From: a virus
Strand: one strand, 5' to 3'
Length of the DNA stretch: 64,000 bases
Virus record (IMG/VR): IMGVR_UViG_3300045988_083460
Position 1 is the first letter of the stretch; the number at the start of each line of letters is the position of its first letter. Made by a program: the position numbers and the translations under genes. This document shows, piece after piece, positions 10,168-28,305 of the stretch. The notes under the pieces are model-generated. The model was given only the letters and a program-made list of their open reading frames with translations, did no database searches and had not been told where the DNA came from.

Positions 10168-10229
10168 TTTAAGAGGACAGACCCAATAGGAGGGCCCTCT
10201 TGCTATAAGACGTATACAGCAAATCTATT

Positions 10230-10302
10230 TCCAGAATAGTCAAATGGTTAAGACATTTCAACTCAAAGTGAAAAATTATTGGTTCGAATCCGATTTCCGG
10301 AG
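10230..10302 (+). tRNA. tRNA-like gene with apparent 8-nt anticodon loop (ACTCAAAG); anticodon ambiguous (CAA or UCA)
   Basis: acceptor TCCAGAA/TTCCGGA (1 mismatch), D-loop AATGGTTA, T-arm ATTGG-TTCGAAT-CCGAT; anticodon stem TTTCA/TGAAA leaves 8 loop nt. Confidence 0.4.
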
Positions 10303-10386
10303 CTAAATAGCTAGCGTCTTGAAAACATTTGAAAAACTTTTATAAATATGATATAATATTTATAGAAAGTAAGAAAGGAAGTTGCA

Positions 10387-10588: not shown

Positions 10589-10701
10589 AAAACAATAAAA
10601 AATATTGTATAATATTTATATAAGGCAGACACAGCAAATCTTTTATTAAATAAAACACTTATTTTTGGTTTAAGAAAGTTTATTTATTCTGCCTTGAGCT
10701 T

Positions 10702-10778: not shown

Positions 10779-10904
10779 AAGTCGAGTTTGTGAGTAGCGC
10801 CGCGACTTTAACCCTAAACTCTCAATTCGTCCACTGCGAACTAAAATAATAGGCTGGCCCAATAGAGCGACGGGTAGTTCTGAAACAAATAGTTGCTCTT
10901 TTAT

Positions 10905-11225: not shown

Positions 11226-11329
11226 TGGTTTCTACTGATTTCCCATGCCCAATAAGTCAGAAGTGTGATATATGTGAACGACGAGGCGCAAAGCACACGG
11301 GGTGCGTACGACCCTTCCTCGTCTTATAC

Positions 11330-12792: not shown

Positions 12793-13190
12793 TTAGGTGC
12801 CAAGAACCTAAAGGCTCAGTTGAAGCAGCTTTATATAGCGCTGTATAAAGAAATCGGCTGGCTGAGAGATAAAATCTGGAGTAACGAAAAGGGTTCGGGG
12901 ATGGAAGTCAACGACCTCGTTAAAAAATTAAGTTGGCACCGATTATTTTCTCAATAGAGATTTATATATAAAAGACTAGCGAATCGGGAACCTATCAAAA
13001 GTGCAAGATAGGCTGTTAGAATGGCACTACCGATTAAAATAAATTAAGGAGGTATTAAAAAATGATGGATATTGATGATTTCATTTTCGCAGAAACAGAA
13101 GTTATTCATAGTGATAGATAACTTTTATGTTTAATGCGGCCGCCGATAGGTGATGGTTCCAAGCCCATAAAACGCAGAGGAAACATATTT

Positions 13191-13283
13191 GGAGGGGTGG
13201 CAGAGTAGGTTGAATGCGAGGGATTGCTAATCCCTTGATTGTGGAAACACGGTCCGGAGGTTCGAATCCTCTCCCCTTCGCCA
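13191..13283 (+). tRNA. tRNA-Ser (anticodon GCU), type II
   Basis: acceptor GGAGGGG/CCCCTTC, anticodon arm AGGGA-TTGCTAA-TCCCT, long variable arm, G73-CCA. Confidence 0.8.
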
Positions 13284-18316: not shown

Positions 18317-18393
18317 CCGGGTGTAGTTCAGTTGATTAGAACGCGTGATTTGGGATCACGAGGCCGTGAGTTTGAGTCTCACCACTCGGACCA
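18317..18393 (+). tRNA. tRNA-Pro (anticodon UGG)
   Basis: anticodon arm CGTGA-TTTGGGA-TCACG; T-arm GTGAG-TTTGAGT-CTCAC. Confidence 0.75.
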
Positions 18394-18662
18394 CTCGCTC
18401 CCTAAGAGCGAGAATATGTATCACTCCTTTCCTATATATATAGACTCAATACAGCAAATATATGCAAATATACTTGTATAAAAAGATTTTACTAAATAAA
18501 TCTTATTTAGAAAGCTAAGAAGCATTTTCTTTTTGAAGGGAAGCCAAGAAAATGTTGAGCATATGGGGCAAGCCCTTTTGAGTCTAGTCTTTAGAAACTT
18601 TTGAAAATATTAAAAATAAATGATATAATATTTATAGAAAGTTGAGAAAGGAAGTCTTAAAT

Positions 18663-18956: not shown

Positions 18957-19154
18957 ATGAATTTTGTTGTTGGAGTTCTTAGTTTCTTTGAAAATGAAAT
19001 TAAGTTAGAGAAGATTACTGCTGAATCAGAAAAAGAAGCTCTAAAGAAACATTCTCTTTTGAATGGATATACCATTGATGAAGATGCTTCTTTAGAGAAG
19101 ATTTATGACGATTTGTTCAACTGCGATATAGCAGCGAGTGTAATTAAAATATAA
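18957..19154 (+). CDS. hypothetical protein
   Basis: 65-aa ORF, RBS AGGAG. Confidence 0.4.
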   Translation: MNFVVGVLSFFENEIKLEKITAESEKEALKKHSLLNGYTIDEDASLEKIYDDLFNCDIAASVIKI

Positions 19155-19295
19155 GTAAAATAAAGACGCATACAGCAAATTCTTCTTAATAGAAGATGCA
19201 GGTTCGAATCCTGTGGATCGCGCTTAGCGATTTTGGCGGAATGGTTTACGCAACTGTCTGATAAACAGTCTTTTCTTTAATGCGTCTTGATTTAT

Positions 19296-19369
19296 AGCGG
19301 ATTGGTGTAATGGTAACACGCGGGACTTTGACTCCCTTGTTAGAGGTTCGACCCCTCTATCCGCTGCCA
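19296..19369 (+). tRNA. tRNA-Gln (anticodon UUG)
   Basis: perfect acceptor AGCGGAT/ATCCGCT, anticodon loop CTTTGAC, G73-CCA. Confidence 0.7.
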
Positions 19370-19616
19370 TATACCGCTTTAGTGTAGCGGTCTGCACGCT
19401 TGGCTCTGAACCAAGAAGTTTTCGTTCAACACGAAGAAGCGGTGCCAGTAATAGAAGCAATACGTACAGAAATCGTAAATAAGACTTCTATTGTCAGGAT
19501 GTAGGATTGAAAGCGTCCACCATTTAAAGAGTGGCGAGTAAACCTGCAGGGCTCGCCTTTGGCGTAGTAGCACACTGACGAGGTTCTCGATTAACCTTAT
19601 CCAAAATCGTTTATAT

Positions 19617-19733
19617 GGGGAGTTAGCTCAGTTGGTAGAGCGCGTTATAGTTTGGTCTTGTTAAAGACCGTAACAGCAATCTTTAACTTGCTTTGGGTGC
19701 ACGATGTCGCAGGTTCGAGTCCTGCACTCCCCG
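19617..19733 (+). tRNA. tRNA-like gene with about 49-nt insertion in the anticodon/variable region; anticodon undetermined
   Basis: perfect acceptor GGGGAGT/ACTCCCC, canonical D-arm (GCTC-AGTTGGTA-GAGC) and T-arm (GCAGG-TTCGAGT-CCTGC) separated by 66 nt instead of about 22. Confidence 0.5.
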
Positions 19734-19818
19734 CCGAATACACCGGAGATACTTTCATCCTCCGGGGAAGAAGAAGAGAAAGGTGAGAAGCACAACTCAG
19801 CATAAAAATGTGCAATAT

Positions 19819-19905
19819 CCCGGAGTGGTGGAATTGGCAGACACAGGGGACTTAAAATCCCCTGAGAGCAATCTCGTACGGGTTCGAGTCCCGTCTCCGG
19901 GACCA
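19819..19905 (+). tRNA. tRNA-Leu (anticodon UAA), type II
   Basis: perfect acceptor CCCGGAG/CTCCGGG, anticodon arm AGGGGA-CTTAAAA-TCCCCT, long variable arm, A73-CCA. Confidence 0.8.
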
Positions 19906-19923
19906 AACAATTCTTTTATATAT

Positions 19924-20011
19924 GGGTCAGTAAAGTGCTAAAGTAGACACCCCGGTCTGTAAAACCGGTGCTTTCGAGCTCGAGTGGGTGCGATTCCCTC
20001 CTGGCCCACCA
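19924..20011 (+). tRNA. tRNA-Tyr (anticodon GUA), type II
   Basis: anticodon arm CCGGT-CTGTAAA-ACCGG; variable arm with GCT-TTCG-AGC hairpin; A73-CCA. Confidence 0.7.
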
Positions 20012-20040
20012 CATCTAACAATAGGAAAGGAAGTAAATAG

Positions 20041-21162
20041 ATGAATATTGTCCATACAGGAAATCGTTTTTAGGTATATGGTGACGATGTAAAAACTTAT
20101 AAAGAGTTACCAATCGGAACCTATACAATCGGTTTCCATCCCCAAATGGGAATTTGGCTTTCTGTTCATAATAATTTGCAGATTGGCGAAGAAAAAGTTT
20201 ATGGCTCGCATAGTCATAAGGTAGAGAAAGTTTTCAACTCTTTCGATAAGTCCGAGCGAAACTTTGGTATAATTCTTTCTGGTAAGAAAGGTATTGGCAA
20301 ATCTCTTTTTGCAAGAATGATTGCGGATGCCGCGATCAAGCGAGAAATGCCAGTGATTGTAGTCGATTCTCCTATTCCCGGAATTAGTAATTTCCTCAGT
20401 TCCATTGAACAAGAAGTTGTTATTATCTTTGACGAGTTTGAAAAGACTTTTGCCAGGAATGATGACGGCGATCCGCAGGTAGGACTTTTAAGTCTATTTG
20501 ATGGGATTGATAATGGAAAGAAACTTTTTGTTATCACTTGTAACGATACAAGAAAATTGAACGAATTTCTTATCAATCGCCCTGGTCGTTTTCACTATCA
20601 TTTTGAGATTGGCTGTCCTACAGCGGATGAAGTGCGGGCATATATGATGGATGCGCTTGGAAGCGGTATGGAAGAGGAAATTGAAAAGGTTGTTAAGTTG
20701 TCGCAGGTCGCGGACATTACTTATGATAGCCTAAGGGCTATTGCTTTTGATTTGAAACAAGGTTATCCTTTGGAGGAAACCTTAATGGATTTGAATATTA
20801 ACTATGAGAGAGGTGTTCTCTTTGATGTTAATGTTCGTTTGACTAATGGTTGGGTTATGACTGCATATAATTATAATCTCGATCTTTATGCCAAAGAGGT
20901 TCAGTGTCTTCGGTTTAAAAAAGATAAGAATGATTTCTACCTTTCTTTTGATCCAGGAAAGATTAAATCTATGGATGGTACTCTCGTACTTATGGGCGTA
21001 GATGCTAATTTCTATTGTGATTTTGATGCTTTCGATTATGATTACCCCACTGAGGAAGAGAGTGCAAAGGCTAGAAAGGAATTTAACGAAAAAGTAAGGG
21101 TTGAAAATGCAACCTTTACTAAGGTTTCAATTTATGGAGTCAATAAGTATATTGACCTTTAA
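20041..21162 (+). CDS. AAA+ family ATPase; in-frame TAG at 20074-20076
   Basis: Walker A GKKGIGKS, Walker B VIIFDEFEK, sensor-1 ITCN, arginine-finger region NRPGRFHYHF; RBS AGGAAAGGAAG before ATG 20041. Confidence 0.75.
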
Positions 21163-21201
21163 TATAAAGACCTAAGCAAGTCTTAAAACTGCTTTATATA
21201 T

Positions 21202-21277
21202 TGCGGGTAGGACAAGTGGTTAAGTCGCAGCCCTCATAAGGCTTGAGGAATGAGTTCGATTCTCATACCCGCAACCA
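21202..21277 (+). tRNA. tRNA-Met/Ile2 (anticodon CAU), second copy
   Basis: perfect acceptor TGCGGGT/ACCCGCA, anticodon loop CTCATAA, T-arm ATGAG-TTCGATT-CTCAT. Confidence 0.75.
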
Positions 21278-21361
21278 TCCATCGTTGCAGCGGTGTTTAT
21301 ATATATTTCATTTATAAATGCAATATGTATGATTGAGGTTCTGCAAAACCTTGATTACCCT

Positions 21362-21394
21362 AGAGGGGCTAGCCATAAGCTGGCCCCTCTTTTC
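21362..21394 (+). terminator. rho-independent terminator (GAGGGGC...GCCCCTC + TTTTCT)
   Basis: inverted repeat plus T-run; followed directly by the conserved 55-nt element. Confidence 0.65.
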
Positions 21395-21400
21395 TGTTGT

Positions 21401-21455
21401 CCTCGTTCTGCTCCGAGTTTCCGTTCGCGCAGGCCCACCAAATTTTTCTTTCAAA
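21401..21455 (+). repeat. 55-nt conserved element, copy 1 (CCTCGTTCTGCTCCGAGTTTCCGTTCGCGCAGGCCCACCAAATTTTTCTTTCAAAA)
   Basis: 53/55 identical to 47922..47976; both copies follow a terminator and precede TAG-rich operons. Confidence 0.8.
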
Positions 21456-21557
21456 AATGGGGCTTGGACAATTTATGTGAAATCTCTTGTCATTATTGTT
21501 ATATAGTATAAAGAGAGATAATTTTCTTCTCTACTTCTTTAAGAAAGGAGAATAAGT

Positions 21558-27388: not shown

Positions 27389-27477
27389 CTAAAAGACGCT
27401 TTCAGCAATTTATTTTAAGAATATAAAAAAGTTTGATTTTTAATTTCTTGCCATGATTTTGCGTCTTGAGAATATAT

Positions 27478-27553
27478 TGCGGAGTAGCGTAATGGTTTAG
27501 CGCAGGGGTCTCTAAAACCTCGGGAGTGGGTTCGAATCCCACCTCCGCTGCCA
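27478..27553 (+). tRNA. amber suppressor tRNA (anticodon CUA), Gln-type
   Basis: anticodon arm GGGGT-CTCTAAA-ACCTC gives C34 U35 A36; weak 1-72 pair (U1/U72) and G73 resemble tRNA-Gln identity; T-arm GTGGG-TTCGAAT-CCCAC; CCA encoded. Confidence 0.75.
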
Positions 27554-27888: not shown

Positions 27889-28305
27889 GAAATTTTTGCA
27901 ATAACTTAAAAAATATTTTATAATATAAGTGTAAATCTTCCTTTCAAATATATAAATAAGGCTCATACAGCAAAATTTTATTGCCGAATATTCGGCTCCT
28001 TGGATGAATCAAATGTATGATATACCCTAAGTATGATGCGATATTGCGAGCCTTGCAATTAAAACAATAAAGTGTTAAAACGGGGCATCGCGCGGAAGAG
28101 CCATTATATAATGGACATAGGGCCATTCTTCCGCGCATTTTCTTTATCGGGGAGTTGGCAATTTATGTGGCAAAATAATATTGAATTTTTAGATGTACTT
28201 ACAATGATTTCTTTTATTCTTCAGGTATAGAACTCAGAAGGTTGTAAACTAGATGAAGTAAATAAAAAGTTGGATGTTTTAATTGCTGAGGTTGCTAAAT
28301 TAAAT

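What the first reader, a model, noticed from the sequence alone, without database searches (positions are those of the whole stretch)
19617..19733. tRNA gene interrupted by a 49-nt insertion that carries the recurring AAGAC...ACAGCAAT motif
A perfect 7-bp acceptor stem, canonical D-arm and canonical T-arm are present. The segment between D-stem and T-stem is 66 nt instead of 21-22. I could find no canonical anticodon stem in it.

The insert folds into GGTCTT-GTTA-AAGACC and GCAA-TCTTTAAC-TTGC hairpins. It contains AAGACCGTAACAGCAAT, a copy of the motif found upstream of five other tRNA or tRNA-like loci.

It is too short for a group I intron. It could be a small spliceosome-independent intron, an insertion of a mobile mini-element that disabled the gene, or a tRNA-derived regulatory RNA.
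Basis: seen in the sequence. Interest (0 to 1): 0.6.

Follow-up and report, generated by a model that had tools for sequence, protein, structure and literature searches.

The report
tRNA carrying a Y-RNA-like handle
A phage tRNA gene is interrupted in its anticodon stem by a 44-base hairpin module that also marks about 200 tRNA-like RNAs beside Ro60-like protein genes in huge phages and gut bacteria, so it is most likely a new kind of Y-RNA-like chimera and not a broken gene or a classical intron.

Summary
Window 19617-19733 is a full-length tRNA (Rfam 49.8 bits) with an insert of 44 nt, not 49, at 19646-19689. The insert lies in the 5' strand of the anticodon stem, between positions 29 and 30. 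Removing it restores a perfect arm, CGUGC/UUUGGGU/GCACG.

The insert is one copy of a conserved, strand-specific RNA module. It has a 7-8 bp helix P1 (WAGRCNN/NNGYCUW) followed by NNN-CAGCAAW. The module occurs 7 times in the window and 198 times on the same strand (1 on the other) in 52 related phage loci.

P1 covaries strongly. Elsewhere the module encloses tRNA-like cargo in direct or circularly permuted order. Here P1 is capped by a GUUA loop inside a normal tRNA.

Interrupted tRNAs of this type are conserved, with compensatory changes, across diverged phages. Their anticodon loops drift.

The module lies upstream of DUF2828/DUF7788 genes, one of which is in the window. A predicted structure of that protein matches Ro60/TROVE. 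In Clostridia such genes sit next to RtcB. One permuted member aligns end to end, but weakly, with Rfam YrlA.

Best reading (about 0.55): a Y-RNA-like handle for a Ro60-like protein, grafted onto a tRNA body. A true spliced intron (about 0.2) is not excluded.

The parts
19617..19645 (+). 5' part of the tRNA body: acceptor 5' strand 19617-19623, U8 A9, D arm 19626-19641, G26 19642, anticodon-stem positions 27-29 (CGU) 19643-19645
   Evidence: Rfam tRNA alignment. Covariation in the 13-sequence alignment A2.
19646..19689 (+). 44-nt insert, the Y-RNA-like module in hairpin form: linker UAUAGUUU 19646-19653; P1 strand GGUCUU 19654-19659; loop GUUA 19660-19663; P1 strand AAGACC 19664-19669; junction GUAACAGCAAU 19670-19680 (conserved CAGCAAU 19674-19680); linker CUUUAACUU 19681-19689
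   Evidence: Sequence. P1 is paired in 100% of cells in 13 homologues, with 3 pairs changed on both sides. The same module occurs in 198 same-strand copies in 52 phage loci. P1 pairs 6 and 7 pair in 141/150 and 142/150 copies.
19690..19733 (+). 3' part of the tRNA body: positions 30-31 (GC) 19690-19691, loop UUUGGGU 19692-19698, GCACG 19699-19703, variable loop AUGUC 19704-19708, T arm 19709-19725, acceptor 3' strand 19726-19732, discriminator G 19733. It is followed by CCG, not CCA.
19163..19288 (+). Linear copy of the module enclosing a circularly permuted tRNA-like body. Order: P1 5' strand 19163-19169, junction ending in CAGCAAA 19170-19179, V hairpin, T arm, acceptor 3' strand, loop, acceptor 5' strand, D arm, anticodon arm CUGAUAA, P1 3' strand 19282-19288.
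   Evidence: ARAGORN calls tRNA-Ile(GAU) across the junction of the circularised interior. Coordinates.
10207..10320 (+). Linear copy of the module enclosing a complete tRNA-like body in direct order (ARAGORN tRNA(CAA) 10230-10303, no CCA)
10622..10695 (+). Linear copy of the module with a short AU-rich interior. It starts just after a promoter-like TTGAAA-N17-TATAAT and ends 6 nt before tRNA-Asn.
18441..18586 (+). Linear copy of the module (P1 UAGACUC/GAGUCUA) with a 121-nt interior
27393..27467 (+). Linear copy of the module with a short interior. It ends 10 nt before the suppressor tRNA(CUA).
27958..28054 (+). Linear copy of the module, about 800 nt upstream of the Ro60-like gene
28857..30377 (+). 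Gene for a 506-aa DUF2828 + DUF7788 protein, the proposed protein partner of the module
   Evidence: Pfam. AlphaFold2 model, pLDDT 79.4. The top 12 Foldseek PDB hits are all Ro60/TROVE, E 7e-8 to 2e-4, followed by vWA domains. The module is linked to homologues of this gene in phages and bacteria.

Best explanation
The locus encodes a chimeric, tRNA-derived non-coding RNA.

**Anatomy.** It has a normal tRNA acceptor stem, D arm and T arm. Its anticodon arm carries a stem-bulge module: helix P1 (GGUCUU/AAGACC) capped by GUUA, followed by the single-stranded CAGCAAU.

**What the module marks.** The same module closes the 5' and 3' ends of a large family of tRNA-like RNAs. These are encoded next to genes for a Ro60-like (TROVE + vWA fold) DUF2828/DUF7788 protein, in huge phages and in RtcB operons of Clostridia.

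**Proposed mechanism (inferred).** By analogy with Y RNAs and YrlA, the module is the docking site for the phage Ro60-like protein. In Y RNAs a terminal stem next to a bulge carrying a CGAA-type motif binds Ro60, and the rest of the RNA mimics tRNA. Here the tRNA body would act as bait or tether for enzymes or nucleases that recognise tRNA. The RNP would serve the phage's tRNA repair and quality-control programme, whose enzymes fill the same window.

**Topology.** This locus has the same parts as a permuted YrlA-like RNA, but the chain ends lie at the acceptor stem and P1 is closed by a loop. That is why it looks like an intron.

**Shown:** the anatomy, conservation, covariation, the genetic linkage and the protein fold.

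**Inferred:** protein binding, absence of splicing, and the role in repair or as a decoy.
For: 1. **Real, conserved RNA.** Rfam tRNA scores 49.8 bits. In 13 homologues 95.4% of cells pair and 16 pairs change on both sides, with 0 of 500 shuffles as high. RNAalifold independently predicts the acceptor, D, P1 and T helices.
2. **The module is a family signature.** The regex gives 198 + strand hits against 1 on the - strand in 52 phage loci. Of 176 distinct copies, 149 have the P1 partner downstream and 10 have it 4-5 nt upstream. P1 pairs that were not used to find the partner pair in 94-95% of copies with four or more pair types.
3. **The cargo is tRNA-like.** It occurs in direct order, in permuted order and as fragments.
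4. **One full-length but weak alignment to YrlA.** One permuted member (L010:7525-7638) aligns to the whole Rfam YrlA model (positions 1-114) in the same order of stem, T arm, acceptor stem-loop and D arm. The score is only 29 bits and the E-value of 1e-4 applies to a 201-nt search.
5. **The partner candidate has the Ro60 fold.** The DUF2828/DUF7788 protein model has pLDDT 79.4. Its top 12 Foldseek PDB hits are Ro60/TROVE (9kop, 1yvr, 9l5y, 2nvo), followed by vWA domains.
6. **Genetic linkage.** In 79 genome loci with DUF2828 homologues (37-80% identity), the regex hits 80 times on the gene strand and 2 times on the other. In the 41 loci with both flanks, 51 hits lie upstream, 0 in the gene and 0 downstream, and 31 of 41 loci have at least one. 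In Yeguia hominis the order is WYL regulators, two module RNAs, RtcB, then the Ro60-like gene. This mirrors rsr-yrlBA-rtcBA (PMC7790460).
7. **Decoding is not what is conserved.** In orthologues the would-be anticodon loop reads UUUGGGU, UUAUGGU, CUUAGGG, UCUAGGG, CUAGGGG, UUUUGGG or GUAUGGG. In L165 the module replaces the whole anticodon arm. The window already has tRNA-Pro(UGG) at 18317.
8. **Known Y RNAs have a matching design.** They are described as a 5'-3' stem flanking a bulge with a CGAA motif (PMC12135203), or a GNCGAAN0-1G motif near the 5' end (PMC4201824).
Against: - No binding or expression data exist.
- The conserved motif (CAGCAAW) is not the published Y RNA motif.
- The YrlA match is far below Rfam's gathering score (29 bits against 69).
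- The Ro60-like assignment rests on a predicted structure with moderate TM-scores (0.30-0.55). Sequence searches against PDB chains found nothing.
- In W, L004/5, L023, L043a and L137, removing the insert restores a flawless anticodon arm with canonical loops such as CUGAUAA and CUGUUAA. Several copies also encode CCA. A spliced intron predicts this more directly than a binding handle does.
- The window encodes an RNA ligase, a P-loop kinase of the AAA_33 type and phosphoesterases. If these act as RNA end-healing and sealing enzymes, which I infer from the domain families, they could join exons.
Confidence: 0.55

Rival explanations
1. It is a genuine protein-dependent tRNA intron. The linear copies would then be permuted or leader-flanked genes processed by the same machinery. 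An endonuclease would recognise P1 plus CAGCAAW and cut on both sides. A ligase (the phage RNA ligase with kinase and phosphoesterase, or host RtcB) would join the ends. The result would be tRNA-Pro(UGG) here and circular intermediates for the permuted genes, as in Cyanidioschyzon merolae and archaea.
For: - Deleting 19646-19689 gives a perfect cloverleaf.
- The same holds for L023 (Ile GAU), L043a (Asn GUU) and L137 (Asn GUU), whose anticodon loops are fully canonical.
- CCA is encoded in L007-L019, L023 and L043b.
- Permuted copies carry G-CCA plus a short linker between the acceptor strands.
- The circularised interior of 19163-19288 is called tRNA-Ile(GAU).
- The window encodes an RNA ligase, an AAA_33 kinase, metallophosphoesterases and Thg1.
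- RtcB sits beside the module RNAs in bacteria.
Against: - There is no bulge-helix-bulge geometry. The 5' junction would lie inside a helix.
- The insertion point varies: 28/29, 29/30, 30/31 and 31/32.
- The spacing from module to junction varies, 6-9 nt on the 5' side and 6-11 nt on the 3' side. A ruler mechanism is therefore not supported.
- Many cargoes could never yield a tRNA: AU-rich 34-60-nt interiors, anticodon hairpin only, or the YrlA-like class with no anticodon arm.
- The anticodon loop drifts by substitutions and indels among close orthologues.
- The interrupted tRNAs checked are redundant with intact isoacceptors (Pro-UGG in W, Ile-GAU in L023).
- No splicing endonuclease was recognised among the 30 window ORFs scanned against Pfam.
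Confidence: 0.2
2. It is a selfish miniature mobile element, MITE-like, with the inverted repeats AAGAC/GTCTT. It landed in a redundant tRNA gene and inactivated it, so the locus is a decaying pseudogene.
For: - The module has terminal inverted repeats and many copies per genome.
- The tRNA is redundant with Pro(UGG) at 18317.
- The 3' end has CCG where CCA is expected.
- The anticodon loop drifts.
Against: - In this locus the repeats are adjacent (GGUCUU-GUUA-AAGACC), the opposite of transposon ends.
- Copies are strictly on one strand, 198 to 1 and 80 to 2.
- Copies within a genome differ in P1 sequence but keep pairing. This points to selection at the RNA level, not recent transposition.
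- The interrupted tRNA keeps all helices through compensatory changes across diverged phages.
- The module has a fixed position upstream of one gene family in bacteria.
Confidence: 0.07
3. The P1 plus CAGCAAW module is a small self-cleaving ribozyme or an RNase processing signal. It would trim tRNA precursors, as the twister ribozyme upstream of tRNA-Ser in this array may do.
For: - Several linear copies end 6-10 nt before a tRNA (10695 before Asn, 19288 before Gln, 27467 before the suppressor tRNA).
- A twister-P1-like ribozyme lies 5 nt before tRNA-Ser, so ribozyme-assisted processing is plausible in this genome.
Against: - No ribozyme family in Rfam 15 matches any copy, even at E up to 1-10.
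- The conserved core is only about 12 nt plus one helix.
- In bacteria the module RNAs are stand-alone genes beside the Ro60-like gene and RtcB, not next to tRNA genes.
- A copy inside a tRNA would destroy that tRNA.
Confidence: 0.05

Closest known systems
YrlA / bacterial Y RNAs (Rfam RF02553; Chen et al. 2014, PMC4201824; phage phiLo Yrl1/2, PMC12135203)
   Same: - They are encoded next to a Ro60-type protein gene, and in bacteria within an RtcB operon.
- They have a terminal 5'-3' stem beside a single-stranded conserved motif.
- The rest of the RNA mimics tRNA (T arm, D arm, acceptor stem-loop).
- One permuted member aligns to the full YrlA model in the same order of domains.
   Different: - The motif is WAGRCNN-NNN-CAGCAAW, not GNCGAAN0-1G or CGAA.
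- The protein is DUF2828/DUF7788, not Pfam TROVE. It is similar to Ro60 only at the level of a predicted fold.
- The score is far below Rfam's threshold (29 bits against 69).
- There are up to a dozen copies per 20 kb.
- The cargo topology varies: direct, permuted, or fragments.
- In this locus the RNA is not permuted. The ends are at the acceptor stem and the Ro-type stem is a capped hairpin inside the anticodon stem, next to a still recognisable anticodon loop.
Archaeal and eukaryotic protein-spliced tRNA introns and permuted tRNA genes (BHB motif; Cyanidioschyzon merolae)
   Same: - It is a short insert in the anticodon arm whose removal restores a cloverleaf.
- Interrupted and circularly permuted versions coexist and share one junction structure.
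- Ligase genes lie nearby.
   Different: - There is no bulge-helix-bulge motif.
- No splicing endonuclease was found.
- The setting is bacterial and phage.
- The same junction module also flanks RNAs that cannot become tRNAs.
Bacterial and phage group I introns in tRNA anticodon loops
   Same: The location is in the anticodon arm of a tRNA gene in a bacterial virus.
   Different: The insert is 44 nt, whereas group I introns exceed 200 nt. There is no group I core. No Rfam intron family matched.

Membership tests
tRNA (Rfam RF00005) | Cloverleaf scoring above the gathering threshold | tested here: met
   49.8 bits against 29, model positions 1-71. The acceptor, D and T helices covary.
tRNA (Rfam RF00005) | Contiguous 5-bp anticodon stem with a 7-nt loop in the primary transcript | tested here: not met
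   The stem is split by 44 nt between positions 29 and 30. ARAGORN in default mode misses the gene. ARAGORN -i gives only a poor Lys(CUU) model.
YrlA / Y RNA | Gene adjacent to a Ro60 (TROVE + vWA) protein gene | tested here: met
   The Ro60-like fold is supported. The family is linked to this gene in phages and bacteria. In the window the protein gene is at 28857-30377, the nearest module is at 27958-28054, and this locus lies 9 kb upstream in the same array.
YrlA / Y RNA | Conserved Ro-binding motif GNCGAAN0-1G (CGAA) at the terminal stem | tested here: not met
   A different conserved motif, CAGCAAW, occupies the analogous position after a WAGRCNN helix.
YrlA / Y RNA | Rfam RF02553 gathering score | tested here: not met
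   The best family member scores 29 bits against 69. No YrlA match with E up to 1 appeared in the scan of window 9000-30000.
YrlA / Y RNA | Permuted tRNA-like domain: ends in the Ro-binding stem and acceptor stem closed by a loop | tested here: not met
   Many family members meet this. This locus does not, because its ends are at the acceptor stem and P1 is capped by GUUA.
YrlA / Y RNA | Physical binding to the Ro60 protein | not testable with these tools
   This needs EMSA or RIP.
BHB-type (archaeal/eukaryal) tRNA intron | Two 3-nt bulges separated by a 4-bp helix at the exon-intron junctions | tested here: not met
   Inspection and folding of 7 homologues showed no such geometry. The junction positions and spacings vary.
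BHB-type (archaeal/eukaryal) tRNA intron | Removal restores a functional tRNA; spliced product exists | tested here: inconclusive
   In-silico removal restores a perfect cloverleaf in W, L004/5, L023, L043a and L137, but not cleanly in the L007 group, L043b, L147 or L165. No RNA data are available.
Group I intron | Conserved P3-P8 core, more than 200 nt | tested here: not met
   The insert is 44 nt. There is no Rfam hit.
MITE-like mobile element | Near-identical copies, outward terminal inverted repeats, target-site duplication, both orientations | tested here: not met
   Copies are diverged with compensatory changes. They occur on one strand only. In this locus the repeats abut each other.

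The most novel reading that the evidence does not exclude
P1 plus CAGCAAW could be the recognition element of a previously unknown bacterial and phage RNA cut-and-rejoin pathway, involving a Ro60-like protein with RtcB or the phage ligase. This pathway would splice the 44-nt insert out of this tRNA and circularise the permuted and fragment cargoes. It would be the first protein-dependent tRNA intron and permuted tRNA gene system outside archaea and eukaryotes.
Probability: 0.12. Interest if true: 0.92.

Novelty: new variant of a known kind. Interest (0 to 1): 0.72.

Why it matters
If the reading is right, three things follow.

1. **A large undescribed branch of Y-RNA-like RNAs.** It has its own sequence signature. 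One member's predicted fold matches Ro60. This would give both the RNA and the protein a testable function.

2. **A topological intermediate between tRNA and Y RNA.** This locus is an ordinary tRNA with the Ro-type stem grafted into its anticodon arm. Relatives retain, degrade or lose the anticodon loop, and permuted versions sit in the same genomes. The long-standing idea that bacterial Y RNAs derive from tRNAs could therefore be tested by comparison.

3. **A clue to huge-phage biology.** These phages carry up to a dozen such RNAs among their tRNA arrays, next to an RNA ligase and kinase, phosphoesterase, Thg1 and vault-protein homologues. This points to an elaborate RNP-based defence of the translation apparatus, for example decoys or repair scaffolds against anticodon nucleases.

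Tried and rejected
- **Nucleotide similarity.** Megablast of 19000-21500 against GenBank phages found nothing. Only a protein search placed the window near the 462-735 kb uncultured huge phages LR756500-3.
- **ARAGORN with introns.** It forces a 42-nt intron into the loop and a weak Lys(CUU) fold. I rejected this in favour of the 29/30 split, which gives five Watson-Crick pairs.
- **Exhaustive in-silico deletions scored by ARAGORN.** The program was too permissive to fix the junction.
- **A fixed-register P2 helix next to CAGCAAW.** It was only weakly enriched (duplex energy -3.7 against -2.5 kcal/mol) and showed no preferred register. I did not include it as a defined feature.
It is not conserved.
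- **An intron-less orthologue.** I found none. L009 and L012 tRNA-Leu(UAG) are unrelated class II tRNAs. Every orthologue recovered by its flanking sequences (L007-L011, L013, L016) keeps the insert.
- **Protein structure.** The single-sequence AlphaFold2 model of the protein was unusable (pLDDT 39.8). Sequence and profile searches of PDB chains found no Ro60. Only the alignment-based model gave the Ro60 match.
- **Viral-collection pattern scan for hairpin-type copies.** It returned mostly chance hits. After filtering for a T loop, 9 stretches were left, of which two repeat the window's own tRNA and three are new module-bearing tRNA-like loci.
- **Literature.** Searches for permuted tRNA in phage, tRNA introns in huge phages, and DUF2828 found no prior description. 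Two key papers (PMC5062991, PMC10870794) are not held.
Full report
**1. What is at the coordinates**

The window carries a + strand array of 31 tRNA genes and a tmRNA between about 10.1 and 28.6 kb. ARAGORN does not call 19617-19733. The Rfam tRNA model matches it end to end (model positions 1-71, 49.8 bits, gathering score 29) and places 55 nt where the model has 11.

Reading the sequence gives this layout:
- acceptor 5' strand GGGGAGU (19617-19623), then UA;
- D arm GCUC-AGUUGGUA-GAGC (19626-19641), then G26;
- CGU (positions 27-29, 19643-19645);
- 44 nt of insert (19646-19689);
- GC-UUUGGGU-GCACG (19690-19703);
- variable loop AUGUC;
- T arm GCAGG-UUCGAGU-CCUGC (19709-19725);
- acceptor 3' strand ACUCCCC and discriminator G (19733).

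Deleting the 44 nt gives a perfect 5-bp anticodon stem CGUGC/GCACG, a 7-nt loop with U33 and G37, and the anticodon UGG. The boundary can slide by 1-2 nt because of repeated U residues.

The insert is 44 nt and not 49, and a canonical anticodon arm is present in split form. ARAGORN with intron search forces a 42-nt intron into the loop and yields a weak, GU-rich Lys(CUU) model, which I consider inferior. The locus is followed by CCG. The other tRNAs I read in the array, with the exception of tRNA(CAA) at 10230-10303, encode CCA.

**2. The insert is a copy of a conserved RNA module**

The insert reads UAUAGUUU-GGUCUU-GUUA-AAGACC-GUAACAGCAAU-CUUUAACUU.

The motif recurs six more times in the window, always on the + strand and always inside the tRNA array. 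Every other copy has the same plan:
- a 5' strand WAGRCNN;
- three or so nucleotides, then CAGCAAW;
- an interior of variable length;
- the exact complement NNGYCUW;
- almost always a G after that.

The copies lie at 10207-10320, 10622-10695, 18441-18586, 19163-19288, 27393-27467 and 27958-28054. In the interrupted tRNA the two strands of this helix (P1) are adjacent and capped by GUUA. This is the same junction with the chain connected the other way round.

**3. The module is real, strand-specific and under selection for pairing**

A search with the neighbouring AAA ATPase brought in 52 related loci from IMG/VR.
- The regex for the module hits 198 times on the tRNA strand and once on the other.
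- Of 176 distinct copies, 149 have the 6-nt complement downstream within 400 nt. Ten have it 4-5 nt upstream, which is the hairpin form.
- I then located the partner by the five conserved positions only. The next two, variable, positions pair in 163/172 and 162/172 copies.
- On a 150-row alignment the helix is 94.3% paired and has 230 cells changed on both sides. No shuffle out of 500 reached either value, and all slid registers collapse to 30-51% paired.
- A second helix directly after CAGCAAW is only weakly supported and has no fixed register.

**4. What the module encloses**

Interiors cluster at about 37-58, 85-95 and 120 nt.
- **Short interiors.** Many hold a hairpin that looks like an anticodon arm, with loops such as CUUUUAA, CUGUUAA, CUGAUAA and CUUAAAA. 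Some also hold a T arm.
- **Hairpin enrichment.** Hairpins with a 4-5-bp stem and a YU...R 7-nt loop occur in 119 of 203 interiors, against about 22 after shuffling. This count includes T arms. UUU is the commonest non-T triplet.
- **Interiors of 80-120 nt.** ARAGORN finds a tRNA-like body in direct order in 17 cases. It finds one across the junction of the circularised interior, meaning a permuted body, in 11. By eye many more are permuted, with the T arm about 21 nt into the interior.
- **Window 19163-19288 is permuted.** It runs V hairpin, T arm, acceptor 3' strand, loop, acceptor 5' strand, D arm, anticodon arm CUGAUAA. ARAGORN calls Ile(GAU) on its circularised form.
- **A large permuted class has no anticodon arm.** One example is L010:7525-7638. 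It runs hairpin, T arm, acceptor 3' strand, G-CCA, short linker, acceptor 5' strand, D arm.

**5. The interrupted tRNA is conserved**

The same interrupted gene sits at the same place in phages whose ATPase is 57-81% identical to the window's (upstream of tRNA-Leu(UAA) and the ATPase in the closest relatives). Independent interrupted tRNAs occur in L023, L043 (two), L137, L147 and L165.

On 13 of these sequences the acceptor, D, T and P1 helices and the outer anticodon-stem pairs are 95.4% paired. Sixteen pairs are changed on both sides, and 0 of 500 shuffles score as high. RNAalifold predicts acceptor, D, P1 and T without guidance. This is not a decaying remnant.

Two points argue against ordinary decoding.
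- **The insertion point varies.** It is 28/29 in L137; 29/30 in W, L004/5, L023 and L043a; 30/31 in L008; and 31/32 in the L007 group and L019.
- **The anticodon loop drifts.** In the orthologous lineage it changes by substitutions and indels: UUUGGGU, UUAUGGU, CUUAGGG, UCUAGGG, CUAGGGG, UUUUGGG, GUAUGGG.

The series runs from copies with a fully canonical loop (L023 CUGAUAA; L043a and L137 CUGUUAA), through degraded loops, to L165, where the module replaces the entire anticodon arm. The window already has an intact tRNA-Pro(UGG), and L023 has an intact Ile(GAU).

**6. Link to a Ro60-like protein**

*The window's RNA-related genes.* Just after the tRNA array the window encodes:
- a 506-aa DUF2828 + DUF7788 protein (28857-30377);
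- a major-vault-protein homologue (30789-33230);
- an RlaP-like nucleotidyltransferase;
- metallophosphoesterases;
- an RNase T-like exonuclease;
- an RNA ligase (37769-39040);
- Thg1;
- an AAA_33 kinase;
- a PIN-PhoH protein.

*Fold of the protein.* Sequence searches of PDB chains did not reach Ro60. An AlphaFold2 model built on 35 homologues (pLDDT 79.4) has as its top twelve Foldseek PDB hits only Ro60/TROVE structures. These include phage phiLo Ro60 (9kop/9l5y), Xenopus Ro (1yvr/1yvp), Deinococcus Rsr (2nvo) and human Ro60, with E from 7e-8 to 2e-4 and alignments of 515-600 columns. vWA domains follow.

*Linkage in phages.* Homologues of this gene accompany the module in about half of the phage loci. 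In several loci a module copy starts about 190 nt before the gene. The interrupted tRNA-Ile of L023 ends about 70 nt before it.

*Linkage in bacteria.* The decisive test was outside the phages. There are 79 loci in GTDB representative genomes with DUF2828 homologues of 37-80% identity. They include isolates of Merdimmobilis, Yeguia, Moryella, Acetivibrio and Brotocaccenecus.
- The regex hits 80 times on the gene strand and twice on the other.
- In the 41 loci with both 5-kb flanks there are 51 hits upstream, none in the gene and none downstream. Thirty-one loci have at least one.
- The interiors there are again tRNA-like. Rfam scores them as acceptor-less tRNAs and matches nothing else.
- In Yeguia hominis the order is two WYL-type regulators, two module RNAs, RtcB, then the Ro60-like gene. 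This matches the layout of the Salmonella rsr-yrlBA-rtcBA operon (PMC7790460).

*Similarity to YrlA.* The Rfam YrlA model aligns over its full length to the permuted member L010:7525-7638, with the terminal stem, T arm, acceptor stem-loop and D arm in the same order. The score is only 29 bits and the E-value of 1e-4 applies to a 201-nt search.

*Published descriptions.* Y RNAs are described as a 5'-3' stem flanking a bulge with a CGAA motif that mediates Ro60 binding (PMC12135203). YrlA is described as a GNCGAAN0-1G motif near the 5' end followed by V, T, acceptor-like and D elements (PMC4201824).

**7. How it most likely works**

*Shown:*
- the RNA anatomy;
- its conservation and covariation;
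- the family-wide signature;
- the genetic linkage to a protein with a predicted Ro60 fold;
- the RNA-repair gene context.

*Inferred:*
- P1 plus CAGCAAW is the docking site for the Ro60-like protein.
- The transcript of 19617-19733 acts unspliced, as a tRNA-shaped arm attached to that protein.
- The RNP belongs to the phage's tRNA repair, quality-control or decoy programme. The idea that YrlA's tRNA-like domain could competitively inhibit an anticodon nuclease has been raised before (PMC7790460).

In this view the locus is a YrlA-type RNA in unpermuted topology. The anticodon stem plays the role of the second helix of the stem-bulge-stem, P1 is capped by a tetraloop, and the chain ends are at the acceptor stem. 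I put this at about 0.55.

**8. Rivals**

- **A true protein-dependent intron, about 0.2.** This reading would make the linear copies permuted or flanked genes processed through circular intermediates. It explains best why removal restores flawless anticodon arms and why CCA is kept. A ligase and candidate end-healing enzymes are present. Against it: no BHB-like geometry, variable junction positions and spacings, many cargoes that can never become tRNAs, drifting anticodon loops, redundancy with intact isoacceptors, and no recognisable splicing endonuclease.
- **A disabling mobile mini-element, about 0.07.** Strand bias, compensatory evolution and conservation contradict it.
- **A self-cleaving ribozyme or RNase signal, about 0.05.** There is no support from Rfam, and the module RNAs stand alone in bacterial operons.

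The remaining probability is for something not considered here.

**9. Novelty**

Rfam 15 has no family for these RNAs. Full-text searches found no description of them, of a DUF2828-RNA link, or of interrupted or permuted tRNA-like genes in phages. Two relevant papers could not be read, so earlier mention of DUF2828 as a TROVE relative cannot be excluded.

I rate the finding a new variant of a known kind (Y RNA / YrlA). It differs in:
- a new sequence signature;
- a new protein partner family;
- multiple copies per genome;
- several topologies;
- in this locus, an unpermuted tRNA carrying the Ro-type stem.

Noticed in passing
window 13128-13185 (+): A type-P1 twister ribozyme-like element (Rfam RF03160, 51.7 bits, E 4e-9, below the gathering score of 67.2, full model, conserved core nucleotides aligned). 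It ends 5 nt before tRNA-Ser(GCU) at 13191, which suggests ribozyme-assisted 5' processing of a phage tRNA.
   Followed up: partly
window 19924-20011 (+): An unannotated tRNA-Tyr(GUA)-like gene with a long variable arm and encoded CCA (acceptor GGGUCAG/CUGGCCC, anticodon arm CCGGU-CUGUAAA-ACCGG). ARAGORN missed it. Rfam sees it only as tRNA-Sec at 33 bits. It would supply the Tyr tRNA otherwise missing from the array.
   Followed up: partly
window 27478-27553 (+): A tRNA with anticodon CUA (amber suppressor, labelled Pyl by ARAGORN). It lies directly after a module copy and hints at stop-codon recoding in this phage.
   Followed up: no
window 30789-33230 (+): An 813-aa homologue of the eukaryotic major vault protein (MVP shoulder and vault repeat domains). 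It is encoded immediately after the Ro60-like gene and is conserved in related huge phages (LR756500-3, 39-44% identity). The pairing of a TROVE-like protein with MVP recalls vault particles and their small RNAs.
   Followed up: partly
window 34259-47454 (+): A dense cluster of RNA-repair and NAD-salvage genes: RlaP-like nucleotidyltransferase, metallophosphoesterases, RNase T-like exonuclease, RNA ligase, NAPRTase, NAD synthase, Thg1, AAA_33 kinase. A PIN-PhoH protein follows at 48785-50041.
   Followed up: partly
window 10041, 10330, 10585, 11407, 18600, 27030 (approximate starts, +): A recurring promoter-like block TTGAAAA-N17-TATAATATTTATA. Also, nearly every tRNA in the array is immediately preceded by TAT/ATAT, which may be a conserved processing context.
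   Followed up: no
window 10168-10206, 10850-10870, 11240-11260 (+): GC-rich structured spacers directly after several tRNA 3' ends share a CCCAATAG/CCCAATAA box. No Rfam match. Their nature is unknown, and ribozyme-like 3' processing elements cannot be excluded.
   Followed up: no
L104 980-6470 (Yeguia hominis NSJ-40) and other genome loci L089-L131: Bacterial operons with the order WYL/WCX regulators, one to four module RNAs, RtcB, then the DUF2828 Ro60-like gene. This appears to be a Clostridial counterpart of rsr-yrlBA-rtcBA with WYL regulators in place of RtcR.
   Followed up: partly
L012 about 210: In one related phage contig the sequences that flank the interrupted tRNA in its relatives appear to abut. 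The whole interrupted tRNA may be absent there. I did not check this beyond a fuzzy pattern match.
   Followed up: no
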